From assembly GCF_024223415.1 (NCBI RefSeq), contig NZ_CP100500.1: a stretch of 64,000 nt of DNA. One strand, given 5' to 3'. A program made the position numbers. This document shows, one piece after another, positions 57,001-60,000 of the stretch. Within the stretch, counting starts at the first letter, position 1; each line of letters starts with the position of its first letter. This stretch comes from Escherichia coli. GTDB taxonomy: Bacteria > Pseudomonadota > Gammaproteobacteria > Enterobacterales > Enterobacteriaceae.

Positions 57001-60000
57001 CAGAAGCATGGCAGCTTTCTCGTTCAGCAACTCCTTCTGTTTTAGTTCTTCCGCCTTTTTCCGGGCGCGCTCAACCGCCGACGGAATCAGCCCGAGTTTT
57101 TCCAGCACCCGGGTTAATGAGTCAATCAGCAGCGTAACCGGACCGGTCACCAGATTGCTGATAAACTCCCCGACCTTCTGCCCGAACGTACGCCCGGCTT
57201 CCGTGCACTTGTCCAGCTCATCCTTTGTTGTGCTTACCGGCGCGAACAAATCCACGAACCACTGCCACACACGCCCGATTGTCTGCCCGACATACTCAAA
57301 CAGCGGTCCCAGTGGTGCCACAGCCTCGCGCAGTGGCGTAAGCCCCTGCCACAGGCCGGACAAGAACCCGCCCACGACAGCCTTCAGCTGGTCCCAGTGC
57401 CGCCAGATAAGCACTGCCGCACCGACCAGTGTCGCCACCACAAGGCCCACCGGACTTAACAGAAAACCCAGCGCCCCGCCAAGTGCGCCCACCGCACCAC
57501 TCACCATCCCCCACAGTGCGGGCAGACCTGACAGTCTGAGCGCCAGTATTCCGATACCGCGCCCCAGTGAAATCAGTGCGCCGCCAGGTGAAGTGAACGC
57601 AGCCAGCAGACCACCACGCAGCGTACCGAGTAGTCCGCGCACGCCACGAAGCCGGACCGCAAGCCGTCCCGCACCGGTATCAAGACCGGCAAACAGCACA
57701 CGCCAGCCGCCAATACCACTCATCGACCCACCGAGTACGCCGCGCAGCTGCGTCAGTAACGGCAGCGCACGACCGAGGCCGGATGTGCCGGTCAGCAGGG
57801 CAAAACCAAGACGCAGTTTTGCCAGCGGCCCCAGCAACACGCCGGTAGCCAGTGACAGCGCCCCCGTGGCCGCAACCGCAGCCAGCAGTGCACCACCGGC
57901 AATCAGCAGTTGTTTTGTCAGTTCAGGGTGCGCCTGAGCCAGCGCGGTGACTTTCGCAATAACCCGGGTGAACGACTGCGTGACAGAACGCAGCGGCCCG
58001 TCAACGAGGTCAGCGACACGGATACGCAGCCCTTCCCATGCGCTGTTCAGTGATTTCAGGTCGCCGTCCAGGTTGTCCGCCATGATTCTGGCGTTTTCTT
58101 CCAGTTCGCCGTTGGCTGCCTGAATCTCACGCGTCAGGCGCGGCAGGTTTTTTTCGCCTGCCTGTTCAACCAGGCTCATCAGGGAGACATACGCCTCCTG
58201 ACCGGCAATATCTGAAAAGAACGAGACTTTTGCCGCGTTACCGTATTTACGGGTGGCCTGATACAGCTCATACAGGATATCTTCCATCGGGCGCATGTTC
58301 CCGTAAGCATCCTGCGTTTCCACGCCCAGCTGTTTCAGCGCCTTTGCTGCCGCTTTAGGCGGGTTCACAAGGCGGGACAGACTGGAGCGCAGCGCCGTAC
58401 CAGCATCACTGCCACGTATCCCCATCGACCCAAGCAACCCGGTCATGGCTGCGGTCTGTTCAAGAGACAGACCGAGTGAGGCGGCGACCGGTCCCGTATA
58501 TTTCATCGTCTCACCAAGCCCGCGCAGGTCGGTATTGGTGCGGGTGAACGTTGCGGCCAGCGTGTCACCCACGCGGTTCATCTGGTCGGCAGACAACCCG
58601 AACTGTGTAAGGATATTTGAGCTGATATCGGCCGTCTGACCGAGGTCCATGCCGCTGGCCGTTGCCAGATTCAGCACGCCGGGAAGAGCCGCCTGTATCG
58701 CCTGCGGCGTGAACCCCGCCATGGCAAGGAACGCCTGACCGCTGGCAGCATCACCTGCGGTAAACTGCGTTTCGGAGCCGAGTTTAAGCGCCTGTTCGCG
58801 CAGCGCCTTAAACTGCGGACTGTTTTTGTCAATACGGGTCAGCGCCTGGACGCGCGACATCTCCTTACCAAAACTGACCGCCGGTTGCAGGAAACGCCCG
58901 GCCGCATAGCCACCTGCCGCTGCCGTGCCGACTGCCGTAAATCCACCCGCTTTCAGTTTTCCCGCCATCTCCTGAGCGCGGAAATATTGCTGGCGTGCCT
59001 GCGTGACGCGTGCCAGAGTCTGCCGTTCACGTTCCAGCTGTTCGTTGTATTGCTGTGTTCGCCGTATGGCCTGTTGAATGGTGTTGTCACTGCCGGAAAG
59101 CGCAATACCGTGACGCCGCAGCTCACCACCCAGTTCGCGCATTCGCTGAACTTCACGCGCACGGACCTCATTGAGACGCTCAAGTTTGAGGCTCAAATCG
59201 TTCATCAGCTTTTTCTGTTTGTCAGACAGCACGGTTCCGGCGCGCTGAATTTGCTGAAGTGCGCTTAACTGGCGTTGTGCCCGGGCAATGCCGTTTCCGG
59301 CCTTGTTTGCAGCCTCGCGGGCGCGATCAAATGAACGGGCGTGGCGTTCCAGGTTTTTGATCGCACCCTGCGTTCTCTGTATGGAGTCGCCAAGCTGGCC
59401 CATCATGCGACGGGCGTTTTCGGTGGGACGGGTCAGCCTGTCAACAGCGCTGAAGGCGACCCGTATATCAAGCGTTTTCATGCTCTGCGTTCCCGCTGCG
59501 AAGGGCCGCCCGCTCACGCCAGGCGACCACCTCGCCGGGATCCATCAGGAAGATTTCAGCGGGAGACCAGTTGAAAATAACGGCGATATCCGCCACAAAG
59601 TCTTCAATATGCTCAAAGGGCACGACGGTTATCAGCCTGCCGTCGCCGCCACGCTCTTCCCGCCAGAGTCCTGACCGGCCAAAAAATTAACCGCCACCCC
59701 GCACAGCTGAATAAAATCAGCGGACCCCATGCGCTTAAGCAGAACCTCGTCCAGTCGCGGCGAAGTGACGCGCGGGAGTAACTCAAACATCGCGTCCGTT
59801 TTCATGTTCAGCACGTCAAGCAGTGACAGCCCGCGCAGTGAACCGGCCTGCTGTACAGCAGGCGTGATTTCCACATACGTGATTTTTTTGTTACCGAGCA
59901 CAAGGGGCGTTTTCAGCGTCACGCCGCGCTCACTGGTCACGTCCGCCGCATCAGCACCGTCAGTAACAGGGGCAACAACCGGATTTTCTTTCATGCATAA

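What the first reader, a model, noticed from the sequence alone, without database searches (positions are those of the whole stretch)
59468..59994. Programmed -1 frameshift (E/E') upstream of the tape measure gene is intact
The chaperone ORF contains the slippery heptamer TTTTTTG near its 3' end, and the -1 frame continues for about 70 codons to a stop that overlaps the tape measure start. This matches the conserved tail-chaperone frameshift and supports that the inverted tail block is functional.
Basis: partly seen in the sequence, partly recalled or inferred. Interest (0 to 1): 0.3.

Follow-up and report, generated by a model that had tools for sequence, protein, structure and literature searches.

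The report
P2-type tail chaperone frameshift site
This is an ordinary, intact copy of the well-known -1 ribosomal frameshift (E/E+E') that P2-like phages use to make two versions of their tail assembly chaperone, sitting in an E. coli prophage of the P88 (Xuanwuvirus-like) group.

Summary
On the minus strand, a 120-codon ORF (E, 59994-59632) lies between the tail tube gene and the tape measure gene. It carries T TTT TTG in the slippery phase at codons 104-105 (59686-59680). The -1 frame then stays open for 70 codons to a TGA at 59470-59468, which overlaps the tape measure ATG (59481) by 14 nt.

The pattern alone is weak evidence, because seven ORFs in this window show a similar one. Homology settles it:
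- Pfam Phage_P2_GpE matches only the -1-frame part (E 4e-12).
- The 175-aa fusion aligns without a break across the junction with P2 E+E' (36% identity, E 2e-27).
- All 16 Peduoviridae-like relatives examined have an in-phase slippery heptamer there. It is T6G in 12, with flanking bases that vary freely, and a different slippery heptamer in the other four.
- Six relatives, including the three nearest outgroups, have no start codon that could express E' on its own.

No downstream RNA stimulator was found.

The "inverted tail block" is the normal gene order of this sub-clade (P88, phiT5282H, 3LV2017), and P88 is a viable phage. It is not a local rearrangement.

Verdict: a real feature, already known, of low interest. 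Frameshifting here is inferred and has not been measured.

The parts
59632..59994 (-). Gene E (0 frame): 120-aa tail assembly chaperone, P2 gpE homologue
   Evidence: ORF. PHROG 103 'tail protein', E 4e-31. Lies between tube gene FII and tape measure gene T. PGAP calls the same ORF 'phage tail protein' in a 99.9% identical genome.
59680..59686 (-). Slippery heptamer T TTT TTG (X XXY YYZ phase; Phe104-Leu105 of E)
   Evidence: Invariant, in the same phase and the same relative position, in the 11 diverse relatives anchored, while flanking positions vary.
59468..59680 (-). E' segment: the -1 frame, 70 codons plus TGA, reached only by slipping at the heptamer. The E+E' fusion is 175 aa.
   Evidence: Pfam PF06528 Phage_P2_GpE on fusion residues 134-169, E 4e-12, 45.8 bits against a cut-off of 23. 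PHROG 1756 and 6416. BLASTP against P2 E+E' gives E 2e-27 through the junction.
59632..59679 (-). Dual-coding zone: the 0-frame tail of E (15 codons plus stop) overlaps the start of the -1 frame
   Evidence: Identity to P88 is 15/19 in the -1 frame and 8/15 in the 0 frame. Identity to phiT5282H is 9/19 and 4/15 (counted by eye output).
59621..59623 (-). GTG that PGAP uses as the start of a stand-alone 51-aa 'GpE family' CDS, 8 nt after the E stop. Probably not the main route to E'.
   Evidence: Best SD match upstream is 4/6. No equivalent start codon in Kp4861-1, phiT5282H, 3LV2017, RS-AB1, VpaM_MAR or PHL101.
59468..59481 (-). 14-nt overlap of the E' end (TGA 59470-59468) with the start of T (ATG 59481-59479)
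55960..59481 (-). Gene T, tape measure protein, 1173 aa
   Evidence: Pfam PhageMin_Tail, E 3e-58. 58% identical to P88 T.
60045..60563 (-). Gene FII, tail tube
   Evidence: Pfam Phage_tube, E 4e-44, full length
60563..61849 (-). Gene FI, tail sheath (ATG 61849, MSETRFHG...)
   Evidence: Pfam sheath domains. 75-78% nucleotide identity to P88.
55460..55948 (-). Gene U, tail terminator-type protein
   Evidence: Pfam Phage_P2_GpU, E 3e-41

Best explanation
This is a programmed -1 ribosomal frameshift of the P2 E/E+E' type.

Most ribosomes translating the late tail mRNA (FI-FII-E-T-U, minus strand) read E to its stop and make the 120-aa chaperone. A minority pause with tRNA-Phe on UUU (P site) and tRNA-Leu on UUG (A site) at U UUU UUG. 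Both tRNAs slip back one base onto UUU UUU, and translation continues in the -1 frame for 70 codons. The result is a 175-aa E+E' fusion whose C-terminal ~40 residues form the conserved GpE domain.

By analogy with lambda G/GT and P2 E/E+E', both products bind the tape measure protein T, and the extension recruits the tube protein. The fixed slip frequency sets the E : E+E' ratio needed for tail assembly.

Shown here: the sequence anatomy, homology of both parts, and conservation of the slip site. Inferred: that slipping happens, its efficiency, and the chaperone roles.
For: 1. Anatomy: an in-phase heptamer 15 codons before the E stop, 70 open -1 codons, and an end overlapping the T start by 14 nt.
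2. The Pfam Phage_P2_GpE domain is found only in the -1 extension (E 4e-12). PHROG tail families cover both parts.
3. The fusion aligns with P2 E+E' across the junction (36% identity, E 2e-27). A 14-sequence alignment shows invariant residues on both sides of the junction.
4. T TTT TTG is in phase in 12 of 16 relatives, from Escherichia to Burkholderia, Ralstonia and Shewanella, at 50-68% GC. In the 11 sequences anchored, flanking positions are only 4-9/11 conserved. The other four relatives have a different slippery heptamer: TTTTTTC, TTTTTTT, GGGAAAG or C CCT TTC.
5. Six of 16 relatives have no ATG/GTG/TTG in the -1 frame upstream of the conserved domain. No candidate start has a good SD.
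6. In the dual-coding zone upstream of the annotated GTG, the -1 frame is better conserved than the 0 frame (15/19 against 8/15 versus P88).
7. AlphaFold models the fusion confidently (pLDDT 85, pTM 0.75).
8. Literature: the P2 T6G slip site and E+E' (Christie et al. 2002, as summarised in PMC3931495); P2-type efficiency is 2-3 times that of lambda G-T (PMC5009743).
Against: There are no expression data for this locus.

No stimulatory element was found. The downstream RNA folds no better than shuffled sequence (z 0.06 and -0.37). No conserved structure appears in five clade members (-2.3 kcal/mol with an unfavourable covariation term). There is no Rfam match.

The bare pattern occurs by chance several times in the window.

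In this clade a GTG lies 8 nt after the E stop, so some stand-alone E' by reinitiation cannot be excluded.

Confidence: 0.9

Rival explanations
1. E' is made as a separate 51-aa protein, as PGAP annotates it. It would start at GTG 59623 by termination-reinitiation after the E stop 8 nt upstream, with no frameshift.
For: The GTG is present in the window, P88 and Chuche at the same codon. It lies 8 nt after the E stop. RefSeq annotates a 'GpE family phage tail protein' there.
Against: The SD is weak (4/6 at best). The nearest outgroups (Kp4861-1, phiT5282H, 3LV2017) and three other relatives have no start codon before the conserved domain. The -1 frame is conserved upstream of the GTG (15/19 versus P88). 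The slip heptamer is conserved where synonymous codons would be free to vary. P2 E' lacks an RBS, and the E+E' fusion is the described product (PMC3931495, citing Christie 2002).
Confidence: 0.05
2. The shift happens at the RNA level. RNA polymerase slips on the T6 run and makes transcripts with one base more or fewer, and these encode the fusion directly.
For: The site is a homopolymer run. Transcriptional slippage is a known alternative route in some phage and IS genes (reviewed in PMC5009743).
Against: To my knowledge, efficient slippage by bacterial RNA polymerase needs runs of about 8-9 or more, and T6 is short. Some relatives keep a ribosomal-type heptamer without a long run (GGGAAAG in PHL101, C CCT TTC in Kp4861-1). 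That fits tRNA re-pairing and not polymerase stuttering. The conserved 3' G of T6G is a feature of the codon pair.
Confidence: 0.03
3. The heptamer and open -1 frame are a chance pattern or a decayed remnant, and only E is made.
For: Seven ORFs in the window show a comparable pattern by chance or by gene overlap. A 99.9% identical copy in strain GF60 sits in a degraded prophage, with IS21 in FI and T a pseudogene.
Against: There is a Pfam domain in the -1 frame and family-wide conservation. All six genes of the block in this window are full-length.
Confidence: 0.02

Closest known systems
Bacteriophage P2 E / E+E' programmed -1 frameshift (Christie et al. 2002, J Bacteriol 184:6522; summarised in PMC3931495)
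   Same: Same heptamer (T TTT TTG) in the same phase near the 3' end of E. Same position between FII and T. The E' end overlaps the T start. The E' domain is homologous (Pfam PF06528). The fusion is 36% identical to P2 E+E'.
   Different: E is longer (120 aa against 91 aa, with an extra N-terminal stretch modelled at low confidence). The 0-frame tail after the slip is 15 codons, not 6. The -1 linker carries a clade-specific insertion of ~13 residues (GLWREERGGDG...), so E' is 70 codons against 57. The whole FI-U block is on the strand opposite to D.
Escherichia phage P88 / Chuche (Xuanwuvirus) E and E' genes
   Same: Closest characterised relatives: 73% protein identity for the fusion. Identical heptamer, the same 70-codon extension, and the same inverted FI-FII-E-E'-T-U order with divergent D.
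   Different: Only ~75% nucleotide identity. The tape measure is 1173 aa here and 935 aa in P88. P88 has an invertase and an invertible fibre segment between G and U that this window lacks. GenBank records annotate E and E' as two separate 'tail protein' CDS, not as a slippage join.
Lambda G / GT tail assembly chaperone frameshift (Levin et al. 1993; Xu, Hendrix, Duda 2004, 2013, 2014; reviewed in PMC5009743)
   Same: Same logic: a small gene directly upstream of the tape measure gene, a -1 slip near its 3' end, and a short and a long product in a fixed ratio. The model of function is taken from here.

Membership tests
P2-type E / E+E' tail chaperone frameshift (Peduoviridae) | Small ORF located between the tail tube gene (FII) and the tape measure gene (T) | tested here: met
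   FII is Pfam Phage_tube and T is PhageMin_Tail, flanking E on the same strand
P2-type E / E+E' tail chaperone frameshift (Peduoviridae) | In-phase slippery heptamer (T TTT TTG in P2) near the 3' end of E | tested here: met
   59686-59680 (-), codons 104-105 of 120
P2-type E / E+E' tail chaperone frameshift (Peduoviridae) | -1 frame open from the slip site to a stop at or overlapping the T start, encoding the GpE (E') domain | tested here: met
   70 codons, TGA 59470-59468, T ATG 59481. Pfam PF06528, E 4e-12.
P2-type E / E+E' tail chaperone frameshift (Peduoviridae) | Sequence homology of the E part and of the whole fusion to P2 gpE / E+E' | tested here: met
   BLASTP E 2e-27, 36% identity over 151 columns spanning the junction. 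PHROG 103. Pfam and NCBIfam have no model hit for the E part.
P2-type E / E+E' tail chaperone frameshift (Peduoviridae) | E' lacks its own conserved start codon and RBS | tested here: met
   Best SD match 4/6. No start codon in 6 of 16 relatives. This clade does have a GTG 8 nt after the E stop, so a minor independent product is not excluded.
P2-type E / E+E' tail chaperone frameshift (Peduoviridae) | Both E and E+E' proteins are actually produced, and both are needed for tail assembly | not testable with these tools
   Needs proteomics, a reporter assay or genetics
Tail assembly chaperone (lambda G/GT-like) class | TAC fold of the N-terminal (0-frame) domain | tested here: inconclusive
Tail assembly chaperone (lambda G/GT-like) class | Binding to the tape measure protein; absent from mature virions | not testable with these tools
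   Biochemical property
Frameshift sites with an RNA stimulator (dnaX- or IS-type: downstream hairpin or pseudoknot, upstream SD) | Stable or conserved structure 5-9 nt downstream of the heptamer | tested here: not met
   z 0.06 and -0.37 against shuffles. Consensus fold -2.3 kcal/mol with a positive covariation term. No Rfam hit.

The most novel reading that the evidence does not exclude
In the P88-like sub-clade (window, P88, Chuche) the locus may yield three products rather than two: E, the E+E' fusion, and a free 51-aa E'. The free E' would come from termination-reinitiation at the GTG 8 nt after the E stop. The clade-specific ~13-residue linker (GLWREERGGDG) and the longer 15-codon dual-coding zone might tune this. 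The nearest outgroups lack the GTG, so this would be a recent addition to the classical two-product scheme.
Probability: 0.07. Interest if true: 0.3.

Novelty: already known. Interest (0 to 1): 0.08.

Why it matters
The main value is for annotation. RefSeq/PGAP and several phage records (P88, Chuche) split this locus into a "phage tail protein" and a separate 51-aa "GpE family" CDS. They should carry a ribosomal-slippage join giving a 175-aa E+E' protein.

The finding also confirms that the tail-chaperone module of this prophage is undamaged. A 99.9% identical copy in E. coli GF60 sits in a prophage broken by IS21. Finally, it shows that the apparent inversion is simply the gene order of a Peduoviridae sub-clade.

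It opens no new question about frameshifting or tail assembly.

Tried and rejected
- **Bare-pattern statistics:** the heptamer plus a long -1 ORF is not rare in this window, with 7 comparable cases. I did not use it as evidence.
- **Downstream RNA stimulator:** single-sequence folds are no better than shuffles. The consensus fold of 5 clade members is negligible. One search used wrong P88 coordinates and is discarded.
- **Rfam scan of 59300-60200:** nothing at E ≤ 1.
- **Upstream SD-like stimulator:** P2, 186 and the Yersinia phage have AAGGTG ~6 nt upstream, and the window has GGGGTGG ~7 nt upstream. The conserved columns are explained by conserved amino acids, so I make no claim.
- **Pfam and NCBIfam for the E part:** no hit. 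Only PHROGs and direct BLASTP to P2 identify it.
- **Christie et al. 2002 (PMC135442):** not held in the library, so it is cited through PMC3931495 and PMC5009743.
- **Tandem repeat search in T:** nothing at the DNA level.
- **Idea that the tail block is a local inversion:** rejected, because three genera share this order.

Full report
**What is there**

The last 9 kb of the window is the tail end of a P2-like prophage.
- On the minus strand lie FI (sheath, 61849-60563), FII (tube, 60563-60045), a 120-codon ORF (59994-59632), the tape measure gene T (59481-55960) and U (55948-55460).
- On the plus strand lie the fibre genes H and G (52766-55389), upstream of the block.
- Also on the plus strand, downstream of it, lie D (62008-63099) and ogr (63143-63394).

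Pfam identifies FI, FII, T, U, D, Ogr and the fibre assembly protein with full-length, high-scoring matches. The 700 bp around the finding are 99.3-99.9% identical to 28 complete E. coli chromosomes. The nearest sequenced phages are P88 and related Xuanwuvirus members, at about 75% nucleotide identity.

**Checking the observation**

Read on the minus strand, E ends ...GCG GTT AAT TTT TTG GCC GGT ... GGC TGA. The heptamer T TTT TTG (59686-59680) is in the X XXY YYZ phase, at codons 104-105 of 120. Re-reading the G in the -1 frame gives 70 codons (GRSGLWREERGGDGRLITVVPFEHIEDFVADIAVIFNWSPAEIFLMDPGEVVAWRERAALRSGNAEHENA). These end at TGA 59470-59468, 14 nt inside T, whose ATG is at 59481. PGAP places the E, E' and T boundaries at the same coordinates in a 99.9% identical genome.

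**Is it more than chance?**

The pattern by itself is not. TTTTTTG is generally common in the window (20 copies against 9.4 expected). Seven ORFs have an in-phase slippery heptamer in their last quarter with a -1 frame running at least 100 nt past the stop, usually because the next gene overlaps. I therefore rest nothing on the pattern.

**What shows it is the P2 E/E+E' site**

- **The -1 frame carries the known domain.** Pfam Phage_P2_GpE (PF06528) matches residues 134-169 of the conceptual fusion (E 4e-12, 45.8 bits, cut-off 23). It matches nothing in the 0-frame product. PHROGs puts the E part in phrog_103 (E 4e-31) and the extension in phrog_1756 and phrog_6416, all labelled tail proteins.
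- **The fusion aligns across the junction.** The 175-aa fusion aligns in one block with P2 E+E' (36% identity, E 2e-27). The P2 fusion built by the same rule is 142 aa.
- **The two-frame layout is widespread.** tblastn of the fusion finds 396 phage records, and nearly every listed hit falls in two pieces, meaning two reading frames.
- **The slip site is conserved.** I fetched 15 relatives from 12 or more genera. T TTT TTG is in phase at the equivalent position in 12 of the 16 sequences, in genomes of 50-68% GC. Among the 11 sequences anchored, neighbouring nucleotides are conserved in only 4-9 of 11. The remaining four relatives carry another slippery heptamer: TTTTTTC (Vibrio MAR), TTTTTTT (Zymomonas), G GGA AAG (Mannheimia PHL101) and C CCT TTC, 3 nt upstream (Klebsiella Kp4861-1). 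In every case the -1 frame then encodes the ADIAxxFxW...WRE+A motif and stops at the T start.
- **E' has no conserved start of its own.** Six of 16 relatives, including the three nearest outgroups of the window's clade, have no ATG/GTG/TTG in the -1 frame before the conserved domain. Where a start codon exists, the best match to AGGAGG is 4/6.
- **The -1 frame is under selection from the slip site onwards.** In the dual-coding stretch upstream of the GTG that PGAP uses, the -1 frame is better conserved than the 0 frame. Identity is 15/19 against 8/15 versus P88, and 9/19 against 4/15 versus phiT5282H.

**Mechanism**

The site is a plain tandem-slippage heptamer. tRNA-Phe on UUU and tRNA-Leu on UUG can both re-pair on UUU UUU.

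I found no stimulator:
- The downstream RNA folds no better than shuffled sequence.
- Five clade members share no structure.
- Rfam is silent.

The literature available to me says three things. P2 uses this T6G sequence. E' lacks an RBS. [quoted passage not shown] 2002). P2-type efficiency is 2-3 times that of lambda G-T (PMC5009743).

The functional model is carried over from lambda and P2 and is not shown here. In it, both products bind the tape measure, the extension recruits tube protein, and the slip rate fixes the ratio.

**The "inverted tail block"**

FI-FII-E-E'-T-U runs opposite to V-W-J-I-H-G and D. The same order is found in phage P88, Enterobacter phage phiT5282H and Klebsiella phage 3LV2017. 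P88 and its relative PhiSM are active phages (PMC5285337, PMC6456863). This is therefore the normal architecture of a Peduoviridae sub-clade and not a rearrangement peculiar to this prophage. The same clade shares a ~13-residue insertion in the E' linker.

**Rivals**

- **Independent initiation.** E' could start at GTG 59623, 8 nt after the E stop. This cannot be fully excluded for this clade, but it is not conserved and does not explain the slip-site conservation.
- **Transcriptional slippage.** This is unlikely on a T6 run. It also does not fit relatives whose heptamers have no long homopolymer run.
- **Chance pattern.** The Pfam hit and the conservation across relatives exclude it.

**Verdict**

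The feature is real, correctly described and correctly interpreted. It is a textbook feature of P2-like phages. The only practical consequence is that public annotations of this locus should join E and E' by ribosomal slippage.

Noticed in passing
window 61920-61943 (FI-D intergenic, 61850-62007): A perfect dyad, TGTTGT-N12-ACAACA, lies between the divergent FI and D genes. This is the form of the P2 Ogr-dependent late-promoter activator site (own knowledge). Its right half, CGACAACAAAA, is invariant in P88, phiT5282H and 3LV2017. Spacing fits a promoter for D. Whether the same dyad also serves the minus-strand FI-U operon is unresolved: in phiT5282H the FI side is much shorter.
   Followed up: partly
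window 55960-59481 (-), tape measure T: T is 1173 aa against 935 aa in P88 (58% identity). Two blocks account for the extra length. One is ~70 residues in the middle (around 470-600), where the alignment is gapped and duplication-like. The other is a ~185-residue Pro/Val-rich stretch (about residues 913-1097) containing two diverged repeats (...PVVSPVIKPVM...SRPV(L/V)EAVR...). No DNA-level tandem repeat was detected. If tail length scales with T, this prophage would make a longer tail than P88.
   Followed up: partly
window 4679-25456 (-): A single ORF of 6925 codons (about 20.8 kb) lies outside the prophage. It turned up in the background heptamer scan. It is presumably a giant surface or adhesin-type protein; I did not examine it.
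   Followed up: no
L001 (E. coli GF60, NZ_CP172185.1 3211314-3224014): A 99.9% identical copy of the E/E' region sits in a degraded prophage. An IS21-family element (istA/istB) splits the sheath gene FI, and T and tail gene I are annotated as pseudogenes. In the window the whole block is intact.
   Followed up: no
window 60014-60034 (-), between the FII stop and the E start: A GC-rich 8-bp hairpin (-17 kcal/mol, z -1.2, not significant) with no T tract. It occupies the position where phage 186 has an annotated partial terminator tI between its FII and E homologues. It could lower E/T/U expression relative to sheath and tube.
   Followed up: partly
window 54778-55460, compared with L002 7417-9565: P88 carries an invertible tail-fibre segment (inverted H'/G' copies) and a DNA invertase between G and U. 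The window goes from G (ends 55389) almost directly to U (55460-55948, -) and has no invertase. An overlapping 162-aa minus-strand ORF (54922-55410) and a 113-aa plus-strand ORF (55386-55727) were not examined.
   Followed up: no
L007 831-837 (Klebsiella phage Kp4861-1): The T6G site is broken by a T-to-C change (TTTCTTG). An in-phase C CCT TTC heptamer 3 nt upstream remains and leads into the same -1 frame. phiT5282H has both sites overlapping (CCCTTTTTTG). This looks like slip-site turnover within the clade.
   Followed up: partly
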